From a virus: a DNA stretch of 64,000 bases. The translations under genes and the position numbers were made by a program. The notes under the pieces are model-generated. The model was not told the DNA's origin. It saw nothing but the letters and a program-made list of their open reading frames with translations, and searched no databases. Below are positions 1,068 through 36,812 of this stretch, one piece after another. How positions within the stretch are numbered: the stretch's first letter is position 1; each line of letters starts with the position of its first letter. The stretch lies in IMG/VR virus record IMGVR_UViG_3300045988_005351, positions 1 to 64,000 of that record, one strand, 5' to 3'.

Positions 1068-1250
1068 GCCTCCATAGTTCAAAGGATAGAACAACTCTAA
1101 GTAAATCATTTATACTATTGCATAAAAGCTAAGGCTGATTAGCTCAACTGCACAGAGCAGGGGTTTCCTAAACCTCAGGTTGGGAGTTGGAGTCTCCCAT
1201 CAGCCACATTTTGCTTAGAGTAAATACTGGTTCGAGTCCAATTAGAGGTA
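1068..1250 (+). tRNA. split tRNA-like gene: 5' half 1068-1098, 3' half 1210-1250, separated by about 111 nt that contains tRNA-Arg
   Basis: Hand fold. 5' half: acceptor gcctcca, D arm gttc/gaac, anticodon-stem strand actct. 3' half: loop tttgctt, agagt, T arm actgg-ttcgagt-ccaat, acceptor tagaggt. The anticodon stem actct/agagt is perfect across the insertion. The acceptor has one C-A mismatch and one G-U, and the T stem has one mismatch. Possible anticodon UGC with atypical U37. Confidence 0.3.
1133..1206 (+). tRNA. tRNA-Arg (anticodon CCU)
   Basis: Hand-folded cloverleaf: acceptor ggctgat/atcagcc, D stem gctc/gagc, anticodon stem ggggt/acctc with loop ttCCTaa, T stem gggag/ctccc. Atypical T loop ttggagt, and the D loop lacks GG. 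Confidence 0.7.
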
Positions 1251-2932: not shown

Positions 2933-4351
2933 ATGTGTTCTAAATTAAATCCAAGATTAAAGCCTGCACCTAAGTTTGAGGACACTCAACTGGCAGGTGG
3001 TTATGGTGCATTAGCTGCTAGACAATCCAATGTAGCATTGCTTAGAAGAGCAGTGCTGGCTAATCTCCTTTGGGAAGATGTAGCATACATGGATGGTGAG
3101 AAAGTAGCCAATGAGATTAAGAGGTTAATACCTCTGTGTCCTGCTGAGGATGTATATAACATAGCTCTTGAAGCTAGGTTAATGCAGAAACTGAGACATA
3201 CTCCATTGTTTATAGCAGTGGAAATGTGCAAGTACCCTGAACATAAGTTATTTGTTAAGGACTTGTTACCAAAGATAATCACAAGAGCTGATATGCTCAC
3301 TGACTTCTTGGCTATATATTGGAAGGGCAAGAAATGCCCTATCTGTAACCAAGCTAAGAAAGGTCTGGCTTTAGCCTTCCACAACTTCAATGAGTATAAG
3401 TTGGCTAAGTATGACAGAGATGCTGCTATCAAGCTCAGAGATGTGATGTTCTTGGTACATGCCAAGCCTAGAAATCAGTATGAGCAGGAGTTGTTCAATA
3501 AGGTAGCTGAGAGAACTCTCACACCACCTGAGACATGGGAAGTCATGTTATCTAGAGGTGAGGATAAGAAAGCTACTTGGACTAAGCTCATTACAGAAGG
3601 TAAGATAGGAGGATTAGCTATGTTGAGGAATATAGCTAATATGCAGAAAGCTAATGTGGATAGAAAGACTATTCAAGATGGTCTTAAGACACTGAGAAGC
3701 TCAATGCTGTTACCTCTTGACTTCTGGAAGGCTGCTAGGATGAACTCAGTATTTGAGAGAGACATTGAGGATGCTATGATTGAGGCATATAAGAACTTAC
3801 CTAAACTTCCTGGTAAGACACTGTTTATAGTGGATGTATCAGGTTCTATGGGTTCTTTAACCTCTGGTAGTTCTCAGTTCAATAGAATGGACCAAGCCTG
3901 TGCTATGGCTATCTTGGCAGCTAATCAGTGTGAGGACTATGAGCTTGTAGCCACAGCAGGTAATGATGGTTCAAGAAGGAATGCCTCAGAGTGGATTGAA
4001 TATCCCAAGAGAGGTTTTGCTCTTGCTCCACAGATAATGGAGACCAGACATAGGATTGGTGGTGGAGGTATATTCACCAGACAGTGCCTAGAATGGTGTA
4101 AGAATAAGTTCAAAGACAAGAAGTTTGATAGAATTATTATATTCTCAGACTCTCAAGACTGTGACTATCCTGAGAAGATAGTACCTAAACCATTTGGTAC
4201 ATATAACTACATTGTAGATGTATCTGCCCATACAAGAGGAGTGAACTACAAGGGTGTATGGACTGCTGAAGTGAGTGGTTGGAGCGAGAGCTTTATAACA
4301 TTTATAGCTGCTTTAGAAGGTTTGGAAAACAAATTTGATGAAGATGCTTAA
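2933..4351 (+). CDS. rsr: Ro60/Rsr-like RNA-binding protein (TROVE domain + vWA domain)
   Basis: KYDRDAAIKLRDVMFLVHAKP and GGLAMLRNIANM align by eye with the Ro60 blocks [21 protein letters not shown] and LTALLRNLGKM. A C-terminal vWA MIDAS motif follows (FIVDVSGSMGS). Confidence 0.75.
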   Translation: MCSKLNPRLKPAPKFEDTQLAGGYGALAARQSNVALLRRAVLANLLWEDVAYMDGEKVANEIKRLIPLCPAEDVYNIALEARLMQKLRHTPLFIAVEMCKYPEHKLFVKDLLPKIITRADMLTDFLAIYWKGKKCPICNQAKKGLALAFHNFNEYKLAKYDRDAAIKLRDVMFLVHAKPRNQYEQELFNKVAERTLTPPETWEVMLSRGEDKKATWTKLITEGKIGGLAMLRNIANMQKANVDRKTIQDGLKTLRSSMLLPLDFWKAARMNSVFERDIEDAMIEAYKNLPKLPGKTLFIVDVSGSMGSLTSGSSQFNRMDQACAMAILAANQCEDYELVATAGNDGSRRNASEWIEYPKRGFALAPQIMETRHRIGGGGIFTRQCLEWCKNKFKDKKFDRIIIFSDSQDCDYPEKIVPKPFGTYNYIVDVSAHTRGVNYKGVWTAEVSGWSESFITFIAALEGLENKFDEDA

Positions 4352-4462
4352 GTTGTGTAAAGTTTGTCAAATCTCAGACTTAGTAATGAGTAGAGAAAAG
4401 ATGAAAGAGCAACTGTGATAATTTCAACACTCTGACGAGTGTTCTATAGGCTTTTAACTATA

Positions 4463-4554
4463 AAAGGTATCATTAGTGAGGATAGGAGTTACTTCAGCTT
4501 GAAAATGTAATTCTAGCCAATCAATACTCCTGTCAGGAGTTCTATGATACCTTT
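4463..4554 (+). ncRNA. 92-nt stem-enclosed structured RNA element carrying motif copy 1
   Basis: An 11-bp perfect closing stem aaaggtatcat (4463-4473) / atgataccttt (4544-4554). Inside are the TAGTGA..AGTTACTTCA hairpin and the hairpin actcct-gtc-aggagt. It abuts tRNA-Lys. Confidence 0.35.
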
Positions 4555-4560
4555 CACATG

Positions 4561-4705
4561 GAGGAGTTAGCTCAGATGGTAGAGCAGTTTTATAGAATCA
4601 TACTCTATACACCTTTCTCTCTATATCAATGAGTAGTGAAGTGTAGAGTTACTTCAATAATGCCTTTTAAGCAACAGGTCATAGGTTCAAGTCCTATACT
4701 CCTCC
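4561..4705 (+). tRNA. tRNA-Lys (UUU) interrupted by a 72-nt insertion (4590-4661) in the anticodon stem
   Basis: Acceptor gaggagt/actcctc, D arm gctc-agatggta-gagc, T arm atagg-ttcaagt-cctat. Joining gtt (to 4589) to gc (from 4662) gives anticodon stem gttgc/gcaac with loop ctTTTaa and a canonical 73-nt tRNA. Confidence 0.65.
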
Positions 4706-4769
4706 CTTACTTTGTTGGATTTGTGTGTTCTACCTCACTGGTATGTGAATATAGGTGAGGTTTCTACAA

Positions 4770-4908
4770 GGCGGAGTAGCTAAATGGTAAAGCAACACCC
4801 TTACAGAATTTCTCTGGTAAAGCAGTAGTGAGTTGTTAGGGTTACTTCAAGGTTATAGCATTAGTTTCATGGTACTAAAGTATGTAAGTTCGAGTCTTAC
4901 CTCCGCCA
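4770..4908 (+). tRNA. tRNA-like gene (CAU-type anticodon, 8-nt loop) with a ~66-nt insertion (4795-4860) after the D arm
   Basis: Acceptor ggcggag/ctccgcc, D arm gcta-aatggta-aagc, anticodon stem ttagt/actaa with loop ttCATggt (8 nt), variable agtat, T arm gtaag-ttcgagt-cttac. Confidence 0.55.
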
Positions 4909-5112
4909 CTTATTACCTACCTCACCTAGCGTAGTTGTACAGAGTGAGACCTAATAGGAAGCATCAAAGGAACTATCCTAGCCACACTGGTATGCTGTTC
5001 AGTGAGTGAGAAAATGAGCAGCCCCGAAGCATAGTGGGGATAATGTCAAGGAGTACCATCCTTAAGCAGCTATGTAAAACTGGTTGACAATCTGGAAAGA
5101 CAGATAATAAAT

Positions 5113-5240
5113 GGGGGAGTAGCTAAATTGGTTACAATACTCTAGCTGTTATTCTCTGGAAGCAGTAGTGTTAGCAAAGAGTTACTTCAAGCATTCATCT
5201 GATAAATGAAAGTATATTGGTTCGAGTCCAATCTCCCCCA
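5113..5240 (+). tRNA. tRNA-Ile (GAU) with a ~54-nt insertion (about 5135-5188) in the D loop
   Basis: Acceptor gggggag/ctccccc. D-stem strands gcta (5122-5125) and aagc (5189-5192) are separated by the insertion. Anticodon arm ttcat-ctGATaa-atgaa, variable agtat, T arm attgg-ttcgagt-ccaat. Confidence 0.6.
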
Positions 5241-5464
5241 CAAGATAGAGATTAGTGAATGTTACAGTTACTTCATATTATGACTAGTATATTTGTTTAA
5301 CATTCAATCAAGAAAGGAGTAGATTTATTTACAACTTTTCAATTCAACCAACTGTGGCAGAGTTGTTCTACCTCTATTAAGAGGGCTGTGGTAGCAATAC
5401 TATAGTCCTCTTTCTTTTTGATAACTGTGTTAGCTACATATATTGTATTACTAAAAGAAAAAGT

Positions 5465-5860
5465 ATGACAAAGACAAAGGAAAGTGTCGAGAGAGTCGAG
5501 GACTTGAAGGCACAAGTGAAAGACCTTCTTGGTGTAGATGCCATGATGGATGAAGATGTGACTAAGGACATGAAGGAAACCCTTATCACTCAAGCTAAGA
5601 ACAATGGTGAGGAACACATCGAAGAGGTGATTGACACCATTGAGAAAGCACTTGAGAAGATTAAGGACCCTGAGTTCAAGGCTATCATCGCTTCTATCAT
5701 CTGGACTAAGTGTCCTATGGGTATGCAGGAGTCCTGCATTGAACTCCACAACAAGATACTATGTGCTGCAATGGCTGCTCATATGCAGAAGCACACTGAG
5801 GGCAATCCCCTTGTAGGTCTTGCACTGCTGGCAGCTACATTGAAAAACAAACTGCAATGA
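5465..5860 (+). CDS. hypothetical acidic protein (131 aa)
   Basis: ATG ORF, plausible composition, coupled to the next gene (ATGA overlap at 5857). Confidence 0.55.
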   Translation: MTKTKESVERVEDLKAQVKDLLGVDAMMDEDVTKDMKETLITQAKNNGEEHIEEVIDTIEKALEKIKDPEFKAIIASIIWTKCPMGMQESCIELHNKILCAAMAAHMQKHTEGNPLVGLALLAATLKNKLQ

Positions 5861-6228
5861 GTGAAATCAAGGTGAGTGTCAGTATTACACTACAAGGTGG
5901 TGTGATGCTGACCCAAGCTGAGGCTGAACAGCTTGAGAAGAACAAAGTAGGCACTGGCTATGACCTGACTAGAATCAAGGTTGAGAACAAGAAAGGTAAT
6001 GCTGATGTCATCAACGTGAGGACTAGGAAGTTCAGAACTGCCACACAGACCATAAGCATGTGCAAAGAGGCTTATGAGTACATGACAAGCAAGGATAGCT
6101 GTCCTCCCAGCATCAAACAGTTTGTATGGGCTAAGATGAAGCCTGTACAGAGACTGGAGGCACATCTGGACTTGGTGTGCAAGCACCTCAAAGGCATCTC
6201 CTATACCTATAAGGTATTTGATGATTGA
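5857..6228 (+). CDS. hypothetical protein (123 aa)
   Basis: ATG ORF overlapping the upstream stop. Confidence 0.55.
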   Translation: MSEIKVSVSITLQGGVMLTQAEAEQLEKNKVGTGYDLTRIKVENKKGNADVINVRTRKFRTATQTISMCKEAYEYMTSKDSCPPSIKQFVWAKMKPVQRLEAHLDLVCKHLKGISYTYKVFDD

Positions 6229-6448: not shown

Positions 6449-7164
6449 TAGAGTTTGGACTTAAAAGAGCCAGAAATGGTAAGAAATCAAGATTTCTCAA
6501 GAAGTTCCCTCGTAAGAGAATACTCAATAGAGGGGATGAGAAGACTGCCTTTTGGTTCAGAAGCAATTGGATAGATGATAACTACAGGTACTTCAAGGGT
6601 AACTTGGACAAGTTCCTTAAGTCCAATGTAGGTAGACCAGTTGATAAGGTATTCTCAGAGTTCCTTGATAGGTGTAATAAATCTGCCAAGGTATATAATT
6701 TGAGGAAGAGGTTCTATGATATGTTTGAGGAGAAGTCAGAGATTGGCTGGTCAGGTGGTTTCTACATCACCAATGGCATATTGAACTACAAGAAGAGAAC
6801 CAAGAAACTTAAGTCCAAGCCTTACATTAGCATAGGTGACTATAACAGACAGATAATGCCTGATATAGTTACTCTGTGCAAACAATGTGAGTCAAGTCAT
6901 CTCAAGCAACCTGTTGGAGAGTTCAAGCTTACCTATAAGGTCCAGAAGAGAGTTTACTTAGTAGAGAGGGAGATATGGTTAAATGACCTAAAGCTTCAAG
7001 CACACTATAGGTTATGCTCTATTTATGGAGTAGGTAAGGGAGTATCTAAAAGTATATGGGACTCTCAAGACAAGATGTACAAGGCTACCTATGAGCTATG
7101 GGATGATTGGAGCTGGTCTGAACCATCTGAGTTTGTATTTATTACCAAGATTGGGAAGATATGA
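6445..7164 (+). CDS. hypothetical protein (239 aa)
   Basis: Long ATG ORF in the gene train; no motif recognised. Confidence 0.6.
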   Translation: MIEFGLKRARNGKKSRFLKKFPRKRILNRGDEKTAFWFRSNWIDDNYRYFKGNLDKFLKSNVGRPVDKVFSEFLDRCNKSAKVYNLRKRFYDMFEEKSEIGWSGGFYITNGILNYKKRTKKLKSKPYISIGDYNRQIMPDIVTLCKQCESSHLKQPVGEFKLTYKVQKRVYLVEREIWLNDLKLQAHYRLCSIYGVGKGVSKSIWDSQDKMYKATYELWDDWSWSEPSEFVFITKIGKI

Positions 7165-11613: not shown

Positions 11614-12252
11614 ATGGATAAAATTACAAAAGAATTAAAGGTATCAGGTATTTATTGTATTGAAAATATCACTAATCATAAAACCTACATAGGTAGTTCC
11701 AAGAATATCTATCAAAGATTACTTAAACATTTTGCTCTATTAAGGCACAATAAGCATCAGAATGCTCATTTGCAGAGTGCTTGGAATAAGTATGGAGAAA
11801 GTAGTTTTAGGTGGTTTATTCTAGAATTATGCGATAGTGTGGAACTTACAGAGAAGGAGCAATATTGTATAGATTTATTTGGGGCAGAGTATAATATTAC
11901 TAGAATAATAGAGAGAAATATTTTGTCCAGAGAGTCTAGAATAAAGCAAGGAGAGACTAGGAGAAGGTTACATCAAGAGGGAAAACTTGAATGGAACTTC
12001 AATCCAGTTACTCTGTATGTTTATGATTTAGAAGGTAAGCTATTGTTTAGTAACCCTTTAGGACTTAAAGATACTGCTAGGAGATTAGGTATATCTCCTT
12101 CAAGTATTTGTAGAGTTACTAATGGTACTTATCAGCAGTGTAAAGGATATAGGTTTTCTTATAAACTGGAGACCTTACTACCTCTAAATATTAAATCAAT
12201 ACAACAAAATACTAAGTATCAGAATTATATGCAATGTCGTGTAACAGAGTAA
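11614..12252 (+). CDS. GIY-YIG homing endonuclease
   Basis: GIYCIENITNHKTYIGSSKNIYQRL ... N-terminal GIY-YIG module. C-terminal helix-turn-helix-like tail (LGISPSSICRVTNG...GYRFSY). Confidence 0.8.
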   Translation: MDKITKELKVSGIYCIENITNHKTYIGSSKNIYQRLLKHFALLRHNKHQNAHLQSAWNKYGESSFRWFILELCDSVELTEKEQYCIDLFGAEYNITRIIERNILSRESRIKQGETRRRLHQEGKLEWNFNPVTLYVYDLEGKLLFSNPLGLKDTARRLGISPSSICRVTNGTYQQCKGYRFSYKLETLLPLNIKSIQQNTKYQNYMQCRVTE

Positions 12253-17657: not shown

Positions 17658-18974
17658 ATGAGTGAAGAAGTAACTAATAAGGTAAGGGAGTTATATGACG
17701 ACATCATGTACTTCCCTAATAAGGTTCTTAGCATATTCAATGACTTCTTTGGAGAACAGAGAGTGGATATGCAGGGATTCTGGGGCTTTGATGAGTTCCT
17801 ACGTTCAATGTCTGAGAACAGGCTTAGTTCTTTCTTCTCCAGTAAGAGTGCTGTACTTGGTAGTCCAGAGTTCAGAAGTGCCAGTAAAGAGAATAAGGCT
17901 GTCATAGAAGATATGCTTGATAATGGTGCTTTGGATAGTGCTGTAACCAGTGATGAAGCACTTGCTACATACTTCTTACCTATAATGTTTACTGCTGTAA
18001 TGCAGATTATGCCACAAGGTTTCATTCTTGTACATTTCCCTCGTGTAAGGGTTACTAATGAGAATGACAGGTTTGTGGATATAAACCATCTATGGGTTAA
18101 AGTAGGTATAAAGGCAAGTGGTGCAGGCATAGGTTACTTTACTGTAAATAGGAGTGAGTATGAACTCTCTCATATGAAGGCAGACTATATGCACAGTCAT
18201 GTACCAGGAATACCATTTGATAGGTTTACAGAGTTCAAGTCTCCCTGTCTTGGCAGTGGACCTATCAGAAGTACAGTAGCTACTCTTGCAGTGAGGTATG
18301 ATGAGGCTATATGGCAGTTGTTCTGTCTTGAGTTGGATAAGTATGTCAGGGTTGAAAGTATCTCTGGAGTACCTTACAGGTATCTGGAGAGGATAGGTAC
18401 AGGTGGTGGTACAACCAATGGAGAAACTGACTTCTCTATGCAGTCTACCACATTCAATGACTACAATACTATATTCTCTAAAGAGGATATGAAGGACTTT
18501 GTAAGGCATCTGATAAGAGACAAGAAACTCAAGTTCAACTTCATCAGAGGAAGCTATGGCTTTGCAATGTCCTATCTTGACTATAGAATACTCATTAGTA
18601 ATGAGTTCATCAAGTGGTACAATCTGAGATATAACTTAGGAACTTCTGCTGCAAGTTATAATGACTTGATGGGTAGAGGAATACTGAAAGAATGTATCAT
18701 CAACAATGGTAAGATACAGTATCTCAACAGCAATGCGAGAAGGAATGGTAGGGACTATTATAGCTATGAAGGAGCTAATGTATGTACATTCAAGGGTAAT
18801 CCTATCAATATACATATAGTAGACAGTGCTACTGATACCCTTAACAAGACAGTGTTAGTCAATGCAGGTATTGCTGAGGAAATAGCAAAGGCAGTACTTA
18901 CAATAGTAAATTACAAGTATGGGAGAGAACAAAGAGAAGAAGCTGGAATTAGTACACCAGCAATCTATCTATAA
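17658..18974 (+). CDS. putative E2-like (UBC-fold) protein, 438 aa
   Basis: ATG at 17658 (the ORF-track TTG start 17628 lies inside the terminator). A beta-rich core is followed by YMHSHV-x13-SPCLGSG, resembling the HPN...Cys layout of E2/prokaryotic E2-like families. Weakest call of the cassette. Confidence 0.4.
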   Translation: MSEEVTNKVRELYDDIMYFPNKVLSIFNDFFGEQRVDMQGFWGFDEFLRSMSENRLSSFFSSKSAVLGSPEFRSASKENKAVIEDMLDNGALDSAVTSDEALATYFLPIMFTAVMQIMPQGFILVHFPRVRVTNENDRFVDINHLWVKVGIKASGAGIGYFTVNRSEYELSHMKADYMHSHVPGIPFDRFTEFKSPCLGSGPIRSTVATLAVRYDEAIWQLFCLELDKYVRVESISGVPYRYLERIGTGGGTTNGETDFSMQSTTFNDYNTIFSKEDMKDFVRHLIRDKKLKFNFIRGSYGFAMSYLDYRILISNEFIKWYNLRYNLGTSAASYNDLMGRGILKECIINNGKIQYLNSNARRNGRDYYSYEGANVCTFKGNPINIHIVDSATDTLNKTVLVNAGIAEEIAKAVLTIVNYKYGREQREEAGISTPAIYL

Positions 18975-18975
18975 G

Positions 18976-20130
18976 ATGGTAATCCCTCAGGAAGTTGAGA
19001 AGAAGATAAGACTTCTGTGTAGGGAGATACACAATGTGGAATGGTCTGGAGTACTGTTCTACAAGGTAAGTGGTTCATTTGAGGATAAATCTTTGACAAT
19101 CACTTGTGTAGACTTGTTCCAGATGGATGAAGGTACTGGAGGATATACTGAATATGATATGTCTCCAGATGTCATGGGTTATATGGTAGACCATTCTGAG
19201 CTGCTTGATACAGGTGTATATCAGGGACTTATCCATAGTCATAACAACATGGCTACATTCTTTAGTGGTACTGATACAGCCACCTTGCAGTCAGAAGGCA
19301 GTGATATGAACCACTTTGTATCACTGATTGTAAACAATGCTGGTAAATACACAGCAGGAGTAACTAGGAAGGCTAAGCTCAAACAGACAGTCAATGAGGA
19401 GTTCACATATCCCACATGGGGTGATGAGAGGGTATCTGGCAATAGAACCTTTACAGTAGAGAAGGAGTATATCCAATGGTTTAACCTTGACATTGAAATT
19501 GAAGGAGTTAGTAATGACTTTGAAACGGAAATGCTTGAAAGGATTAAGGCTATTAGAGCTAGCAAAGCTAATGCTAATAAGGGGAATATTGAGAATGTCA
19601 GAAGTCCTTACTATAGTGGAGGTTATAAGAAAGAGGACTATGGCAAATACCCAATAGGTTCTTATGGTAGTCCTAAAGGGTATACAGTACCTGCTGGTCC
19701 AGCCAATACTACTCCTATCAAGAGAGAGGTCAAGCAACCTACACTCTTTGATGATGCCAATGAGGAGTTTATGATTGACTATGAGAAGTTAAAGCTCAGT
19801 GATGAGATAGTGGACTGGGTGGTTAAGCAGACCATCACTTGTAGTGTAATCATTCCTAACTCCAGTAACATTGATGTAGAGAAATGGGCTAGGTCTATGG
19901 ACTCTCTGTATAAGAAGAGATTCGCAGACAAGAAGGAGTTTGAAGCCTTTGCATCAAACTTTGTGGACTTTGTGGTTAACTATACAGAAGACCCAGAGGC
20001 TGCTGCTTTCTTGGATGCTACGGAGATGGCTGCTGTATTGGCTTATCAGGTAAGAGAGAAACTAAGTACCCTGCCTAAGAATGAATGGCTGGATGCTTGG
20101 ATAGAATTGTATGATGATTATATACTGTAA
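18976..20130 (+). CDS. JAB/MPN (JAMM) metalloisopeptidase domain protein
   Basis: NVEWSG glutamate plus HSHNNMATFFSGTD (HxHx7Sx2D) at nt 19234-19275. The ATG at 18976 lies 1 nt after the upstream stop. Confidence 0.75.
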   Translation: MVIPQEVEKKIRLLCREIHNVEWSGVLFYKVSGSFEDKSLTITCVDLFQMDEGTGGYTEYDMSPDVMGYMVDHSELLDTGVYQGLIHSHNNMATFFSGTDTATLQSEGSDMNHFVSLIVNNAGKYTAGVTRKAKLKQTVNEEFTYPTWGDERVSGNRTFTVEKEYIQWFNLDIEIEGVSNDFETEMLERIKAIRASKANANKGNIENVRSPYYSGGYKKEDYGKYPIGSYGSPKGYTVPAGPANTTPIKREVKQPTLFDDANEEFMIDYEKLKLSDEIVDWVVKQTITCSVIIPNSSNIDVEKWARSMDSLYKKRFADKKEFEAFASNFVDFVVNYTEDPEAAAFLDATEMAAVLAYQVREKLSTLPKNEWLDAWIELYDDYIL

Positions 20131-20132
20131 GT

Positions 20133-21041
20133 ATGGAAGATATAGTAAGTGAAATAACTGCTCAGGCTCTTAACCAGTTAGCTGAACGTAGGGCAGGGCA
20201 GTCTAGTCAAGAGTTTGAAAGAGCTATAGAGGCGGTTCAGTTGAGTCCAGAAGAGGAAGCAATGTTAGGAGCAGTATTGGAGAGTGAGCATCAAGAGATA
20301 CCAGTAAACTCACAGACTATCACTGTAGATGAGACTACAAGTAGGTTCAGTGGGGCTATATGGTATGAGGAAATACAGAAGCAGACTGTCACTTTGGCAG
20401 GTGTTGGAGGTATTGGCAGTTATGTAGGTTTCTTGTTAGGTAGATTGAAGCCTCAGAGACTTATCATATATGACCCTGACAGGGTTGAGACTGTCAATAT
20501 GTCAGGTCAGTTGTATGGTCAGACAGATGTTGGTAATTATAAGAGTGTAGCCCTTGCCAATATGGTCAGGAACTATGCTAACTATAACAATATAGTGGCA
20601 TTGAATAACAGGTTTGAGGCTAACTCTGAGGCTACTGACATTATGATATGTGGCTTTGACAATATGACAGCCAGAAGGACATTCTATGAGAAGTGGAAGC
20701 AGAAGGTACTGTCCTATCCTGCTGGTAGTGATAACAGGAAGAAGTGTTTGTTCATAGATGGAAGATTGGCAGCAGAAGAGTTCCAAGTACTGTCCATTCA
20801 AGGAGATGATGAAAGAGCTATGGTGGAGTATGAGGATAAGTGGCTGTTCAGTGATGCAGAAGCTGAGGAGACTATATGCTCCTATAAGCAGACTACTTTC
20901 ATGGCTAACATGATTGCATCAGTGATGGTCAATGTCTTTGTGAACTTCGTAGCTAACCAGTGTGGTCCTATCATAGACAGGGATGTTCCTTTCTTCATAT
21001 CCTATGATGCAAGTACAATGTTTACTAAAGTTGAAATGTAA
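20133..21041 (+). CDS. ThiF/MoeB/E1-like adenylyltransferase
   Basis: LAGVGGIGSYVGFLLG Rossmann loop followed by IIYDPDRVETVNMSGQLY, as in E1-like enzymes. Confidence 0.75.
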   Translation: MEDIVSEITAQALNQLAERRAGQSSQEFERAIEAVQLSPEEEAMLGAVLESEHQEIPVNSQTITVDETTSRFSGAIWYEEIQKQTVTLAGVGGIGSYVGFLLGRLKPQRLIIYDPDRVETVNMSGQLYGQTDVGNYKSVALANMVRNYANYNNIVALNNRFEANSEATDIMICGFDNMTARRTFYEKWKQKVLSYPAGSDNRKKCLFIDGRLAAEEFQVLSIQGDDERAMVEYEDKWLFSDAEAEETICSYKQTTFMANMIASVMVNVFVNFVANQCGPIIDRDVPFFISYDASTMFTKVEM

Positions 21042-28593: not shown

Positions 28594-28859
28594 AAGACTT
28601 GATTAAACTTAAGCCAAGAAGCTATGAGGAGAACTACTTGAAGAAGCTAAAGAAACCTGATGGTTCAGAGTCAAAGACTTATGTACTCAAGGTACCTACT
28701 CCCTATCTTAGATGTGGGGAAGTGGAAGGAGGCAGAAAGTTCATTGACCTATCAGGGGGTCCTATGATTGTAGTAGGTGCTTATCTTGAGGAAGCTGAGG
28801 CAGTAGTCAAATCAATAGACTTCACTGTAGGTTATGGCTACACTATAACATTTGAGTAA
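28590..28859 (+). CDS. hypothetical protein (89 aa)
   Basis: ATGA-coupled ORF. Confidence 0.45.
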   Translation: MKDLIKLKPRSYEENYLKKLKKPDGSESKTYVLKVPTPYLRCGEVEGGRKFIDLSGGPMIVVGAYLEEAEAVVKSIDFTVGYGYTITFE

Positions 28860-30980
28860 TGGATGAGTGGTTTGAAGAAGGAAAGCATGAAGCTATCAAG
28901 TACTATGGTGAGCAGATATACTATGTGTCTGGAGTTGCAAACTTATTTAGTGATGCAGAGATAGGATGTCCTTATAAGAATATATCAGTAAGGGAATCAC
29001 TGGAGCTTCTCAGTACACTAAAGGTTGTAGGATTGGATAGTGAGACTAGAGGTACAGAGATATGGCAAGGTCAGCTGCTGTTACTTCAATTAGGTAACAA
29101 GCACTTTCAAGTAGTCATTGACTGTACCACTGTAGATGTCAAGCTATACAAGGAGTTCCTTGAGAGTGATAGGCTTTTCATAATTCATAATGCCAAGTTT
29201 GACCTAAGATGGTTATATAAGGAGGGTATTGTAATCAGAAATGTATTTGATACTTTCCTTGCAGAGAAGATACTGTTCCTGGGATTTCCACCAGGAATAG
29301 TGTCACTCAGCTTGCAGGCTTGTTGTGACAGGTATCTTAATGTCTACCTTGACAAGACAGTCAGAGGTAAGATTAACTATGGTGTCACTGATGAGGTAAT
29401 AATCTATTCAGCCAATGATGTTGTGTTCCTTGAAGATGTCATGGAAGCACAGTTAAAGCAGATAGAGGCTAGAGGTCAGAGAGTTGCCTTAGAGATAGAG
29501 AACAGGTTTGTGAGAGTATTGGCTTATATTGAGTTCTGTGGTATAAGGCTTGACATTGAAAGGTGGAAAGCCAAGATGGTTAAGGATGCTGAAAGACTGA
29601 GAGAAGCAGAGCAGAAACTCAATGATTGGGTTGTAGAGTATGTGATGTCCAAAGGAGACACAGATGCTATAGCCTATGATGTTCAGACTAAGGGAGGAAA
29701 GGTAAAGAGAGCTAAGGGTACTGTAGGTAAGTATGTTGCCATAGACCCGCAGCAGAACCTCTTTGAGGAGAACAAGCCAAGATGTATCATTAACTGGAAC
29801 AGTAACAAGCAGGTTATACCATTGTTTGAGGAGTTAGGGTTCAATGTATGGGCTAAAGACAAGAAGACTGGAAAGATGAAGAAGTCAGTAGACTCAAAGC
29901 TGCTTAAACAGCAGTTGGATAAGAGTCCTCTGGCTAAGTTATATCTTGATTACTCTGGTGAGTTCAAGGTAGTTACTTCATTTGGTCAGAACTTCTTGGA
30001 TGCAGTCAATCCTGTTACAGGGAGAATACACCCTACATTCAATCAGATGATGGACACTGGCAGGTTGAGTTGTGGTAAAGGAGGAAAGAAAGGTGGAGGT
30101 AAGACTAAGGATGATGACTTTGCTGAGGAAGAGCAGACTGAGCAGGATGCTGATGTTATCATAGCAGTAGATAAGAGTGTGAATGTTCAGCAGTTGCCAT
30201 CTGATGCAGAGACTAGAGCTTGCTTCATACCTGATAGAGACCATATGTTAGTTGATTGTGATTATGGAGACCAAGAAGGTCATGTCTTTACTGAGCTAAG
30301 TCAGGATAAGGCATGGATTGATTTCTATAATGACCCCAATGAGAGAGATGGTCACTCCTTTGTAGCCAAGATGATATTCTCTGATGAGCTAAAGGATATA
30401 CCAGAGAAGGAAGTAAAGAAGAAGAGGAAAGACTTGAGGGATGCTGCTAAGCCAGCTAGGTTCACATTTAATTATAATGGAACAGCCAATGCTCTAGCAG
30501 CTAACACAGGTAAGTCTCTTGAGTTCTGTGAGTTATGCTTTAAGAAGTATTTCTCAGCATTCAAAGGTATAGCCAGCTACTTTAGGGTAAGTAAGGCTAA
30601 TATGTGGAAAAGAGGTTATATCCTAATCTCAAAGTACACTGGATTGAGAGCTTACATCTATGACTATCCTATACTGAAAGGCATAGAGAGAAGAATCAAG
30701 GGAATGGGTCAGGAGTTCTGGGATTCCTATAGGAAAGCCAGAGACTCTGGTCAAGTCATTGATGATGTCCCTGTTGTGGTTCTTCAACAGATGGCAAGGA
30801 AGTTTGCCAATGGAGAGCCTATGGAGGCTATTGCTATAAGGTATGAGTATAAGGTCAAGAAGGGTAAGAAGATTGAGACAAAGTATATAGACATTAACAG
30901 GGAGACTGTATTGATTAAACTCTGGAAGCATCTGGCAAAGAGGAGGTCATCATCTGAGAATCAGTCCTGTAACTATCCCT
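28859..30980 (+). CDS. family A DNA polymerase, exon 1 (3'-5' exonuclease + palm/fingers to motif B)
   Basis: Exo I VGLDSET, Exo II HNAKFDLRWL, Exo III YSANDVVFL, motif A LVDCDYGDQEGHVF, motif B RDAAKPARFTFNYNGT. Homology ends at ...ENQSCNYP; the unspliced frame adds unrelated LIVGAYSGDII-stop. Confidence 0.75.
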
Positions 30981-31204
30981 TAATTGTGGGGGCATATAGT
31001 GGTGACATTATATGAAAACTCAGTGAATTGCTGGAAGGCTAAGGAGAAATCTATGCTAATCAGCAGCCAAGACTTGTAGAAATGCAAGTAAGGTTCAGAG
31101 ACTAATCAAAGTAAGCTAAGGAGAAATCTATGCTGAAATGGGCAAGAGTGCTGAGTATCTCTTAATTATTTATTTACCCTATTGGACAATTAAGAAATAA
31201 TTTG

Positions 31205-34248: not shown

Positions 34249-34806
34249 ATGAGGCAATATACACAGAGGGAGTTTATCAAGATATGTATAGCAAATGGTT
34301 TCTATTATAGTAGACATAATGGAGACCATGCTATATATGTCAATGATAGAGGAAGACATATAAGCATTCCATCAAACCTTGAGTGTGCTATTGCTAGAAG
34401 GCTTATTAAAGAGAATAACCTTGAAGCTGATATTAAGAAACTGAAAAGGAAAAAGAAGATGGACAATTACAATTATCCAATGGGAGCTGATACTCCTGAT
34501 GCACCTTGGAATCAAGTAGACAATCCTGAGCGAGAGATAGAGGTACTAGTCAGTGTAACCCTTAGTAAGACCTTTAAGGTCAAGGTATCTGACTATACCA
34601 TAACTGACTCTGGTAAAGATGAGGATGGTGACTACTTTGAGGACATAGACTATTCAGAGTGCGACCTAAAGAGTGCAGTAGAGGAGCAAGTTGTACTACC
34701 CCATAAGGCTTGGGATTACATACCTCCAAAGTCTAAGAGAGAAGTTAATGCTATCTTTGACTTGAAAGGCTGGGATGTTGATGACTTTGAAGTTCTTCCT
34801 GAATAA
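34249..34806 (+). CDS. HicA-like domain protein with acidic C-terminal extension
   Basis: REFIKICIANGFYYSRHNGDHAIYVNDRGRHISIPSN...IARRLIKENNL follows the HicA pattern (GSH..., ..P.H, ...Il). ATG at 34249 (the track start 34240 is TTG). Confidence 0.45.
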   Translation: MRQYTQREFIKICIANGFYYSRHNGDHAIYVNDRGRHISIPSNLECAIARRLIKENNLEADIKKLKRKKKMDNYNYPMGADTPDAPWNQVDNPEREIEVLVSVTLSKTFKVKVSDYTITDSGKDEDGDYFEDIDYSECDLKSAVEEQVVLPHKAWDYIPPKSKREVNAIFDLKGWDVDDFEVLPE

Positions 34807-36194: not shown

Positions 36195-36812
36195 ATGGGC
36201 AATTTTATAGTGTATAAACATACCTCTCCAAGTGGTAAATGTTATATAGGAATAACTTGTCAAGCCCCAGAGTATAGATGGGGTAACAATGGTTACAAGT
36301 ATTTGGAAGTTCTCAAAAGTGGTAAACTTAAGCATCCTTATTTTGCTCAAGCTATATTAAAGTATGGTTGGAGTAACATAAAGCATGAATTACTACATGA
36401 AGGACTATCTAAAGAAGAGGCTTGTAGATTAGAGCAAGAATATATAGCAGGGTATAAATCTCAAAGTCTATCTTATAATATTACTGATGGAGGAGAAGGG
36501 GTGTGGGGATTTCAATTCTCTGAGGAACAAAAAGAAAAACTCAGAGAGAGTCATAGAGGTAAGAAGCAAAGTCCTGAGACTGTGGCTAAAAGGGTGGCAA
36601 AGAATACTGGGAAAAGAAGAACAGATGAACAAAAAGCTAAAACTAGTAAACCTGTTTATCAATTTGACTTAGATGGTAATCTCGTAGCTGCCTATTTTGG
36701 GGTTAGAGAAGCATCAAGATGCACAGGGATAAGTGCATCTCATATAACTCAGTGTTGCAATCACTTACCTAGTAGAAAGACTGCTGGGGGTTTTAAGTGG
36801 GAGTGGCAATGA
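36195..36812 (+). CDS. free-standing GIY-YIG homing endonuclease (I-TevI/Seg-like)
   Basis: FIVYKHTSPSGKCYIGIT...YRW GIY-YIG module, NUMOD3-like repeats (SEEQKEKLRESHRGKKQSPETVAKR), C-terminal HTH (TGISASHITQCCNH...GGFKWEW). No group I core elements flank it. Confidence 0.8.
   Translation: MGNFIVYKHTSPSGKCYIGITCQAPEYRWGNNGYKYLEVLKSGKLKHPYFAQAILKYGWSNIKHELLHEGLSKEEACRLEQEYIAGYKSQSLSYNITDGGEGVWGFQFSEEQKEKLRESHRGKKQSPETVAKRVAKNTGKRRTDEQKAKTSKPVYQFDLDGNLVAAYFGVREASRCTGISASHITQCCNHLPSRKTAGGFKWEWQ

What the first reader, a model, noticed from the sequence alone, without database searches (positions are those of the whole stretch)
4561..5240. Three tRNA genes each interrupted by a short (54-72 nt) insertion at a different non-canonical position
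All three genes have perfect 7-bp acceptor stems and canonical T arms. They fold as cloverleaves only if an internal block is skipped.
- Lys(UUU): 72 nt (4590-4661) between positions 29 and 30 of the anticodon stem.
- The CAU-type gene: about 66 nt (4795-4860) between the D arm and the anticodon arm. The junction is ambiguous within a repeated agca.
- Ile(GAU): about 54 nt (about 5135-5188) inside the D loop.
The blocks are far too short for group I introns; the two bona fide group I introns here are 840-910 nt. They sit at three different sites and share a conserved 3' module.
The bacterial and phage tRNA introns known to me are group I introns in the anticodon loop. Short introns at varied positions are an archaeal trait that needs a splicing endonuclease and an RtcB-type ligase.
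There are three options: a new processing pathway, unspliced tRNA-shaped scaffolds with an extra arm (a Ro60-docking arm?), or tRNAs inactivated by a miniature insertion element.
Basis: partly seen in the sequence, partly recalled or inferred. Interest (0 to 1): 0.8.

Follow-up and report, generated by a model that had tools for sequence, protein, structure and literature searches.

The report
tRNA-shaped Y RNAs with Ro60-docking arm
The three "interrupted tRNA genes" in this crAss-like gut phage are most likely not intron-containing tRNAs but tRNA-shaped partner RNAs (Y-like RNAs) of the Ro60/TROVE protein encoded next door, each carrying a conserved ~50-nt docking hairpin, which is a new layout of a known kind of RNA-protein system.

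Summary
At 4561-4705, 4770-4908 and 5113-5240 there are three tRNA-like genes. Each has a perfect acceptor stem and T arm and an internal block of 54-72 nt.

The blocks are one conserved structured RNA module, with these parts:
- helix H;
- an internal loop, TTCY opposite TRGTG, with a bulged U;
- helix C;
- a single-stranded tail, UACUUCA.

Covariation across 43 distinct copies supports the fold strongly. The same module also occurs twice free-standing in the same array (4463-4554 and 5245-5377). There it is circularly permuted, so that helix C becomes the stem closing the RNA.

The whole array lies directly 3' of a TROVE (Ro60-like) gene, on the same strand, and ends at a terminator-like hairpin. 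The motif also sits next to TROVE genes that are only about 20-47% identical, in many other phages. In those phages it encloses circularly permuted tRNAs, which is the published YrlA architecture.

The closest solved relative of the protein is Thermus phage phiRo60. It binds Y-like RNAs encoded beside its gene and recruits host PNPase.

I found no uninterrupted orthologues, no bulge-helix-bulge (BHB) motif, and no ligase or splicing endonuclease.

Verdict: these are YrlA-like RNAs in native tRNA order, a new variant of a known kind. Splicing is not excluded.

The parts
2933..4351 (+). TROVE (Ro60-like) gene with a C-terminal vWA/MIDAS domain; the presumed protein partner of the RNA modules
   Evidence: Pfam TROVE, E = 1.7e-10. 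Full-length match (residues 25-463, E = 1.3e-13) to PDB 9L5Y/9KOP, including the DxSxS motif. Those entries are phiRo60 of Thermus phage phiLo (PMC12135203).
4429..4451 (+). Remnant 3' half (H3' strand, TTCT, closing strand ATAGGC) of a first Y-like RNA. Close relatives have it intact; here the 5' half has degenerated.
   Evidence: Alignment with L004, L049 and L050. The covariance model gives a chimeric hit at 4429-4497.
4463..4554 (+). Free-standing Y-like RNA 'Y-a'. Order of parts: closing stem AAAGGTATCAT/ATGATACCTTT, TAGTG (4474), helix H ATAGGAGT/ACTCCTGT, tail TACTTCAG, TTCT (4540-4543).
   Evidence: The MFE fold equals the centroid, z = -3.65. Coordinates. This class is conserved and covaries in relatives.
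4561..4705 (+). t1: tRNA-like RNA with a Lys UUU anticodon loop. The docking arm is inserted in the anticodon stem between positions 29 and 30. The block is 4590-4661 and the module core is 4602-4657.
   Evidence: Covariance model: 53.4 bits, E = 6.5e-10.
4770..4908 (+). t2: tRNA-like RNA with an 8-nt anticodon loop UUCAUGGU. The docking arm is in the D region. The block is 4795-4860, or it lies within the D loop. The module core is 4797-4850.
   Evidence: Rfam tRNA, 48.7 bits, with a 67-nt insertion. Covariance model: 65.1 bits, E = 1.7e-12. Coordinates.
5113..5240 (+). t3: tRNA-like RNA with an Ile GAU anticodon loop. The docking arm is inserted after A21 of the D loop. The block is about 5135-5189 and the module core is 5139-5190.
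   Evidence: Covariance model: 57.8 bits, E = 7e-11.
5245..5377 (+). Free-standing Y-like RNA 'Y-e'. Order of parts: closing stem ATAGAGAT/ACCTCTAT, TAGTG (5253), helix H GTTACAGT/ACTGTGGC, tail TACTTCAT, a variable domain of about 75 nt, TTCT (5366-5369).
   Evidence: Orthologues in L004, L005 and L049 have a perfect closing stem (GAGGT/ACCTC).
5379..5412 (+). Terminator-like hairpin followed by a T run. It ends the TROVE + RNA array.
   Evidence: 15-bp stem followed by TCTTTTTGAT. Conserved in relatives.

Best explanation
The three genes encode tRNA-shaped Y-like RNAs that partner the phage Ro60/TROVE protein encoded immediately upstream.

Shown:
- Each 'insertion' is a folded ~50-nt module. 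It has helix H, an internal loop built from TTCY and TRGTG that forms two extra pairs around a bulged U, helix C, and a 3' single-stranded UACUUCA tail.
- The same module exists in the same array as free-standing RNAs in which helix C is the stem that closes the RNA.
- In other TROVE-encoding phages it encloses circularly permuted tRNAs, which is the YrlA layout.

Inferred:
- The array is transcribed with the early TROVE gene up to the hairpin at 5379-5412.
- The tRNA-like ends are processed as tRNA ends are.
- The arm is kept rather than spliced out.
- The TROVE ring docks on the bulged helix.
- The tRNA-like body then recruits or decoys a host factor. PNPase is the precedent. tRNA-binding enzymes or anticodon nucleases are alternatives, given the fast-changing anticodon loops.

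On this reading, t1-t3 are YrlA-type RNAs in native tRNA order. The acceptor end is open and the docking stem is capped by a loop.
For: Structure of the module:
- In 43 distinct inserted copies, 93.5% of cells are paired, against 28-47% when the partners are slid. The covariation score is 0.559 against at most 0.135, and 9 of 13 pairs show compensatory changes.
- TTCY and TRGTG covary with each other: U-A 30, C-G 12.
- RNAalifold finds the same two helices independently.

Circular permutation:
- In 56 free-standing copies the closing stem is 99% paired, with a covariation score of 0.906.
- 120 of 130 non-inserted modules have the downstream partner, against 42 of 6500 shuffles.

Association with TROVE:
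- In the window, all five exact motif copies lie within 930 nt 3' of the TROVE gene.
- The same layout occurs in crAss001, cr112_1 and cr106_1 and in most of 54 IMG/VR loci.
- In 64 further loci with distant TROVE genes, 49 motif copies lie within 800 nt upstream or 400 nt downstream on the gene's strand. Only 4 lie elsewhere on that strand and 4 on the other strand.

Link to YrlA:
- In distant phages, including the cultured Xanthomonas phage Olaya, the module encloses a permuted tRNA in the order anticodon arm, V, T arm, closed acceptor, D arm.
- This matches the published YrlA layout.

Protein:
- The closest solved relative, phiRo60, binds Y-like RNAs encoded next to its gene and forms complexes with host PNPase.

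Against decoding or splicing:
- No relative has an uninterrupted orthologue. All are 124-145 nt.
- Some anticodon loops have 8-9 nt: t2 in the window and the first tRNA-like gene of crAss001.
- In L069 the three module-bearing tRNA-likes duplicate anticodons that are already present three times each as normal tRNAs.
Against: - There is no binding or expression evidence for this phage. The TROVE link rests on genomic association only.
- Most anticodon loops are canonical, with 7 nt, U33 and a purine at 37.
- In the t3 group the only changes in the tRNA body among close relatives are at anticodon positions 34-35: GAU, CAU and GGU. From my own knowledge, unchecked here, the anticodon is a main aminoacylation identity element for Ile, Met and Thr. 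This pattern would also fit selection for aminoacylation or decoding, and hence removal of the arm.
- In L069, three module-bearing tRNA-likes lie in a tRNA array with no TROVE gene within 5-9 kb.
- The window has no exact GNCGAA.
- The protein is only about 25% identical to phiRo60.
Confidence: 0.66

Rival explanations
1. The blocks are true intervening sequences. An endonuclease cuts at both junctions and a ligase (for example host RtcB) rejoins the halves to give functional Lys, Ile and other tRNAs. The module, perhaps bound by TROVE, would serve as the recognition handle.
For: - Removing one contiguous block restores a canonical cloverleaf for t1 and t3.
- Most relatives keep 7-nt loops with U33 and R37.
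- Anticodon switching occurs within an otherwise invariant body.
- In bacteria, Ro60 and Y RNAs are genetically linked to RtcB (abstract of PMC7790460; PMC7824862).
Against: - The junctions lie in single-stranded linkers of variable length, not in a bulge-helix-bulge motif.
- The same module occurs in free-standing RNAs that have no exons.
- It also occurs in permuted tRNAs, where excision would cut the RNA in two.
- Some 'mature' products would have 8-9-nt anticodon loops.
- No RtcB, RNA ligase, PNK or splicing endonuclease was found among 46 ORFs of the window.
- There is no presence/absence polymorphism in more than 50 genomes.
Confidence: 0.15
2. The module is a new small self-cleaving ribozyme or a nuclease processing signal. 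It would cut next to the UACUUCA tail and release tRNA parts or tRNA halves.
For: - It occurs in circularly permuted forms.
- About 18 nucleotides around two short helices are highly conserved and unpaired. From general knowledge, both features are typical of small ribozyme classes.
- It always lies directly 5' of a tRNA segment. In L047 it flanks a whole tRNA-His.
Against: - No known ribozyme family matches, even at E <= 10.
- The strict association with TROVE genes is what is expected of a protein-binding Y RNA.
- The experimentally studied relative binds such RNAs intact (PMC12135203).
Confidence: 0.07
3. The repeated TAGTG...TTACTTCA element acts at the DNA level, for example as an early promoter for the virion RNA polymerase. 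On this reading it interrupts decaying tRNA genes by chance or as a mobile miniature element.
For: - It has a two-box motif with a variable spacer of fixed length (10-11 nt in the window) and is repeated in direct orientation.
- It lies in the early region (PMC8375218).
- It occurs at several different sites in tRNAs.
Against: - Compensatory base changes in both helices, including within the 'boxes' themselves (TTCY/TRGTG), point to selection on RNA structure.
- The partner strand may lie upstream or as much as ~130 nt downstream, which has no meaning for a promoter.
- The tRNA bodies are under strong conservation.
- No common motif was found upstream of early transcripts in phage phi14:2.
Confidence: 0.04

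Closest known systems
YrlA-type bacterial and phage Y RNAs (Chen et al. 2014, PMC4201824; Wang et al. 2018, bioRxiv 10.1101/312249)
   Same: - Encoded beside a Ro60/TROVE gene on the same strand.
- Modular: a protein-docking bulged stem joined to a domain with tRNA D and T arms and the tRNA tertiary nucleotides.
- The docking module joins the tRNA-like domain at or near the anticodon stem and the 26/27 junction.
- Several copies per locus.
- In other phages with a related TROVE gene, the same motif encloses exactly this permuted layout.
   Different: - t1-t3 are in native tRNA gene order. The acceptor stem is open, with a discriminator base. In YrlA the acceptor is closed by a loop and the ends lie in the Ro60 stem.
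- They keep a complete anticodon arm, whereas S. Typhimurium YrlA has no anticodon loop.
- The arm branches from three different sites: anticodon stem 29/30, the D loop, and after A21.
- The window has no exact GNCGAAN0-1G. TRGTG(A) stands in its place. Rhizobium phage RHph_Y65 (GTTGCGAA) looks like an intermediate.
phiRo60 with Yrl1 and Yrl2 of Thermus phage phiLo (NAR 2025, PMC12135203)
   Same: - A phage-encoded doughnut-shaped Ro60 with a vWA domain. It is the best match among solved structures to the window protein.
- The Y-like RNAs are encoded next to the gene.
- It gives the experimental precedent for RNA binding and for RYPER-like complexes with host PNPase.
   Different: - Only about 25% identity.
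- Yrl1 and Yrl2 lie upstream of the gene and are described as stem-bulge-stem RNAs with a CGAA motif, not as tRNAs carrying an arm.
- I could not map their exact ends. A TTTACTTCGG...GGCGAAG element lies about 170 nt upstream of the gene.
Archaeal tRNA introns at non-canonical positions (bulge-helix-bulge introns)
   Same: Short blocks at several non-canonical positions in tRNA genes. Removing a block restores a cloverleaf.
   Different: - No BHB or hBH motif at the junctions.
- The blocks share one conserved, covarying structure that also exists outside tRNAs.
- No splicing endonuclease or ligase gene was found.
Engineered tRNA scaffolds
   Same: A foreign structured RNA grafted onto an intact tRNA body. 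This comparison is recalled from memory and was not tested.
   Different: A natural, conserved system. The grafts sit in the D loop as well as the anticodon stem, and the anticodon loop is kept.

Membership tests
YrlA / bacterial Y RNA | Encoded close to a Ro60/TROVE gene and on the same strand | tested here: met
   The array at 4463-5377 starts 112 nt after the TROVE stop codon, on the same strand. The same is seen in about 57 relatives and in 30 of 64 distant loci.
YrlA / bacterial Y RNA | A tRNA-like domain with D and T arms and the conserved tertiary nucleotides | tested here: met
   U8, A14, G18G19, the TTCRANT T loop and 7-bp acceptor stems are present. The Rfam tRNA model gives 48.7 bits for t2.
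YrlA / bacterial Y RNA | Circularly permuted tRNA: acceptor stem closed by a loop, RNA ends in the Ro60-binding stem, no anticodon loop | tested here: not met
   t1-t3 have open acceptor stems, native order and full anticodon arms. The feature is met by the related RNAs of distant phages.
YrlA / bacterial Y RNA | GNCGAAN0-1G motif in the 5' strand of the Ro60-binding stem | tested here: not met
   No exact match in 4352-5464. At the equivalent place the window has TAGTGAAG, TAGTGAAT, TAGTGAGG, TAGTGAGT and TAGTGTTA. GTTGCGAA in Rhizobium phage RHph_Y65 may be an intermediate form.
YrlA / bacterial Y RNA | Bound by the Ro60 protein | not testable with these tools
   Needs EMSA or co-purification. 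The precedent is phiRo60 with Yrl1/Yrl2 (PMC12135203).
Archaeal-type (BHB) tRNA intron | Bulge-helix-bulge motif with the splice sites in 3-nt bulges separated by a 4-bp helix | tested here: not met
   In the covariation-supported fold the junctions lie in single-stranded linkers. The 5' linker has 0-14 nt and the 3' linker is UACUUCA plus 0-10 nt.
Archaeal-type (BHB) tRNA intron | Splicing endonuclease and RtcB-type ligase available | tested here: inconclusive
   None found among 46 ORFs of the 64-kb window. The rest of the genome and the host were not examined.
Group I intron in tRNA | Catalytic core P3-P9, size above about 200 nt, located in the anticodon loop | tested here: not met
   The blocks are 54-72 nt and lie outside the anticodon loop. 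No Intron_gpI match in 4000-6000 even at E <= 10.
Known self-cleaving ribozyme classes | Match to an Rfam ribozyme model | tested here: not met
   No such match at E <= 10.
Miniature insertion element (MITE-like) | Presence/absence polymorphism, target-site duplication, decay of the interrupted gene | tested here: not met
   No empty sites in 57 loci. The tRNA bodies are nearly invariant. Only t2 shows a flanking duplication (GGTAAAGCA / GGTTATAGCA).

The most novel reading that the evidence does not exclude
The docking arm is a cis-acting handle for a TROVE-dependent tRNA processing pathway. Ro60 would bind the arm, the arm would be excised, and the halves would be rejoined (for example by host RtcB). 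This would give working tRNAs whose anticodons the phage switches rapidly. It would be a protein-guided, non-BHB form of tRNA splicing in a bacterial virus. A related unexcluded reading is that the full-length RNAs are aminoacylated or act as decoys for host anticodon nucleases.
Probability: 0.12. Interest if true: 0.9.

Novelty: new variant of a known kind. Interest (0 to 1): 0.62.

Why it matters
Ro60 and its Y RNAs are conserved from bacteria to humans, yet the role of the tRNA-like domain of bacterial Y RNAs is still unknown.

Here crAss-like phages carry whole arrays of such RNAs. crAss-like phages are among the most abundant viruses of the human gut. Some of the RNAs in these arrays are complete tRNAs in native order, with:
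- an open acceptor end;
- a canonical anticodon loop that evolves fast;
- a Ro60-docking arm grafted into the D loop or the anticodon stem.

This matters in three ways.
- It suggests that YrlA-type RNAs derive from real tRNAs by acquiring a docking hairpin and then undergoing circular permutation.
- It points to the anticodon end and the CCA end as functionally relevant.
- It offers a cultivable system, crAss001 with Bacteroides intestinalis, in which the TROVE gene is expressed early. The function could be tested there.

It also explains why standard tRNA finders and genome annotations leave these ~0.5-1-kb 'non-coding gaps' empty.

Tried and rejected
- A collection scan with the 14-base pattern GTAGTG-N9-12-TTACTTCA returned mostly chance hits, and loci L058-L177 are largely noise. 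It was still useful as a control. Of 120 loci, only 6 hold a genuinely structured module.
- A brute-force deletion scan with ARAGORN at lowered thresholds was too permissive to fix the junctions. I placed them by hand from the cloverleaf rules.
- MAFFT put the 5' strand of helix H out of register in the permuted free-standing set (A2). Only helix C was counted there.
- The search for homologous proteins returned only close relatives, at least 75% identical. The representative search was needed to reach distant TROVE genes.
- The promoter reading was considered and rejected because of covariation.
- The MITE/decay reading was rejected because no empty sites exist and the tRNA bodies are conserved.
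- I did not run a structure prediction of the TROVE protein. A solved relative with a doughnut-shaped fold already matches over the full length.
- The supplement of PMC12135203 is not held, so the Yrl1 and Yrl2 sequences could not be compared directly.
- The review PMC10870794 is not held.

Full report
**1. Observation**

The region 4561-5240 holds three tRNA-like genes on the + strand.

- t1 (4561-4705) has the acceptor stem GAGGAGT/ACTCCTC, U8, A14, G18G19, a TTCAAGT T loop and the anticodon loop CUUUUAA. The cloverleaf forms only if 4590-4661 (72 nt) is skipped, between positions 29 and 30 of the anticodon stem.
- t2 (4770-4908) is the only one the Rfam tRNA model reaches at its gathering score (48.7 bits), with a 67-nt insertion in the D region. 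Its junction is ambiguous because GGTAAAGCA before the block is repeated as GGTTATAGCA after it. Its anticodon loop has 8 nt (UUCAUGGU).
- t3 (5113-5240) has a complete D loop (AAUUGGUUA), then a block of about 55 nt, then AGC-A and a GAU anticodon arm.

ARAGORN in default mode sees none of them. In intron mode it finds Lys with a 72-nt intron and miscalls the other two.

**2. What the blocks are**

All three blocks contain TAGTG-N10-11-TTACTTCA. This exact motif occurs five times in the 64-kb window, all between 4474 and 5275. A relaxed form adds two unstructured hits inside ORFs.

Bacteroides phage crAss001, cr112_1 and cr106_1 have the same arrangement downstream of their TROVE genes.

I fetched 54 IMG/VR loci with the window's TROVE protein, at 68-96% identity. 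Nearly all of them carry tRNA-like genes of 124-145 nt with the block, just 3' of the gene. None carries a 72-76-nt version with the same acceptor stems.

Forty-three distinct blocks align well (A1). They fold into:
- helix H, 8-9 bp;
- an internal loop;
- a 2-bp extension (C-G and Y-R) next to a bulged U;
- helix C, 3-7 bp, with a variable loop;
- a single-stranded UACUUCA tail.

On this structure 93.5% of cells are paired, against 28-47% when the partners are slid. The covariation score is 0.559 against at most 0.135. Nine of 13 pairs show changes on both sides.

The two 'boxes' covary with each other: TTCT goes with TAGTG (U-A, 30) and TTCC with TGGTG (C-G, 12). RNAalifold predicts the same helices on its own.

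This is selection on an RNA fold. It is not a promoter or a decaying insertion.

**3. The same module in a second topology**

Two further copies in the window are not inside tRNAs.

- Y-a, 4463-4554. Order: closing stem, TAGTG, H 5' strand, UACUUCAG, loop, H 3' strand...TTCT, closing stem. The MFE fold equals the centroid, z = -3.65.
- Y-e, 5245-5377. It has the same order with a loop of about 75 nt.

This is the inserted form, circularly permuted. Helix C is the closing stem, and the tRNA is replaced by a loop.

Of 130 distinct non-inserted modules in the relatives, 120 have the downstream partner, against 42 of 6500 shuffles.

I re-joined 56 distinct free-standing copies by computer through an artificial GAAA loop (A2). 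In these the closing stem is 99% paired with a covariation score of 0.906, and the Y-R pair covaries again. The paired percentage is partly by construction, because I selected on pairing. The variety of pair types is not.

A remnant of a further copy lies at 4429-4451. The array ends at a 15-bp hairpin followed by a T run at 5379-5412.

**4. Link to the TROVE gene**

ORF 2933-4351 is a TROVE protein (Pfam, E = 1.7e-10). Its best match among solved structures runs over the full length and includes a vWA MIDAS motif. The match is to 9L5Y/9KOP (E = 1.3e-13).

Those entries are phiRo60 of Thermus phage phiLo. According to PMC12135203:
- phiRo60 is a doughnut-shaped Ro60;
- it binds two Y-like RNAs encoded beside its gene;
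- it forms RYPER-like complexes with host PNPase and attenuates that enzyme.

The protein family is large: 2981 representatives at E <= 0.001. With an alignment of distant members I fetched 80 further phage loci. In the 64 loci that are not crAss001-like, the motif T[AG]GTG-N8-13-TTAC[TA]T[CT] occurs as follows:
- 49 times within 800 nt upstream or 400 nt downstream of the TROVE gene, on its strand, in 30 loci;
- 4 times elsewhere on that strand;
- 4 times on the other strand.

Cultured phages show it too. Xanthomonas phage Olaya has five copies upstream of its TROVE gene. Caulobacter phage CcrColossus has TGGCG...TTCTTCG variants. Rhizobium phage RHph_Y65 has eight copies that begin with GTTGCGA(A). 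This bridges TRGTG(A) to the published Ro60-strand motif GNCGAAN0-1G. That homology is an inference.

**5. Link to YrlA**

In the distant loci the closing-stem form encloses a circularly permuted tRNA. The order is anticodon-like arm (its 5' strand is the CUUCG of the tail), variable region, T arm, an acceptor stem closed by a 3-8-nt loop, then the D arm. After un-permuting by computer, ARAGORN calls tRNAs.

This is the architecture published for YrlA:
- the Ro60 module extends from the anticodon stem;
- there is no free CCA end.

In L047 the closing-stem module encloses a whole un-permuted tRNA-His.

The window's t1-t3 are therefore the opposite permutation of the same two-module design. The ends are at the acceptor stem and the docking stem is capped. 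From the published account, M. smegmatis YrlA is opened by RNase P and receives CCA. The crAss layout gives the same open end genetically.

Rfam 15 has no family that matches these RNAs, either in the window or in 11 distant loci. In the searchable library I found no paper linking crAss TROVE genes to Y RNAs.

**6. Spliced or not?**

Against splicing:
- The junctions lie in single-stranded linkers of variable length, not in a BHB motif.
- The module occurs where there is nothing to join.
- Some products would have 8- or 9-nt anticodon loops (t2 here; the first tRNA-like gene of crAss001).
- No RtcB, RNA ligase, PNK or splicing endonuclease turned up among 46 ORFs.
- In L069, three module-bearing tRNA-likes (Asn GUU, Asp GUC, Lys UUU) sit in a 27-tRNA array that already has three normal copies of each.

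For splicing, or at least for a role of the anticodon:
- Most loops are canonical.
- Variation among close relatives is concentrated in the anticodon. The t3 group differs in its tRNA body only at positions 34-35 (GAU, CAU, GGU). The t2 group shows UGG, UUG and the 8-nt loop. The t1 group shows UUU, UUC, GUG and GCU.
- From my own knowledge, unchecked here, the anticodon is a main aminoacylation identity element for Ile, Met and Thr.

I therefore keep splicing at about 0.15. I note that aminoacylation or recognition by anticodon-directed host enzymes may matter even for the unspliced RNA.

**7. Caveats**

- The TROVE link is associative.
- L069 has no TROVE gene within 5-9 kb, and the rest of that contig was not seen.
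- I did not test expression.
- The early timing of the TROVE gene comes from crAss001.

**8. Verdict**

The best-supported explanation is that these are tRNA-shaped Y-like RNAs with a Ro60/TROVE-docking arm, a native-order permutation of the YrlA design (confidence about 0.66). It is a new variant of a known kind. Interest is moderate to high, because the system is abundant in the human gut, cultivable, and bears on what the tRNA-like half of Y RNAs is for.

Noticed in passing
window 1133-1207 and 1548-1935: A tRNA-Arg(CCU) gene and a full-length tmRNA gene (Rfam, 91 bits) lie just upstream of the TROVE gene. An HNH/NUMOD4 ORF (2687-2917) lies between them and it. The order tRNA, tmRNA, TROVE, Y-RNA array recurs in relatives (L184, L187-L189, L194, L198).
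   Followed up: partly
window 4909-5112: A conserved non-coding stretch of about 200 nt lies between t2 and t3. The hairpin at 5022-5039 (CCCC-GAAGCATAGT-GGGG) shows compensatory changes in relatives (CCTC/GGAG, CCCA/TGGG). No Rfam family matches. Its function is unknown.
   Followed up: partly
window 5310-5326 (inside Y-e): A Shine-Dalgarno-like sequence, AAGAAAGGAGTAGATTT, sits in the variable domain of the last Y-like RNA. It is conserved in crAss001, cr112_1 and L052. It could pair with the 3' end of 16S rRNA. This was not tested.
   Followed up: no
window 4731-4761: A conserved hairpin, TACCTCAC...GTGAGGT, lies between t1 and t2. It may be a processing or pausing signal.
   Followed up: no
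L047 6270-6400: A closing-stem module encloses a complete, un-permuted tRNA-His(GUG). The module is formed by the 5' leader and 3' trailer of the tRNA, and TTCAG of the conserved tail forms part of the acceptor stem. This is a third topology of the same two-module design.
   Followed up: partly
L069 4300-5310 (minus strand): Three module-bearing tRNA-likes (Lys UUU, Asp GUC, Asn GUU) lie inside an array of 27 ordinary tRNAs. No TROVE gene is found within 5-9 kb. Each of the three anticodons is already present three times as a normal tRNA in the array.
   Followed up: partly
L143 about 6930-7060 (minus strand): A close relative of t3 has the anticodon loop CGUUUAA, with G at position 33. This is a further anticodon-loop variant on an otherwise identical body.
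   Followed up: no
window 30971-31204: A group I intron (Rfam, 66 bits) interrupts the family A DNA polymerase gene (28859-31015 and the ORF that follows). GIY-YIG homing-endonuclease ORFs lie at 11614-12252 and 36195-36812.
   Followed up: no
window 18919-21041: Two adjacent ORFs have a prokaryotic JAB domain and a ThiF (E1-like) domain. They may form a ubiquitin-like conjugation/deconjugation pair in the phage.
   Followed up: no
window 34249-34806: An ORF has an N-terminal HicA-toxin-like domain (residues 7-42, Pfam E = 2.9e-6). Pfam describes HicA as a bacterial toxin-antitoxin toxin; from memory, such toxins are mRNA interferases.
   Followed up: no
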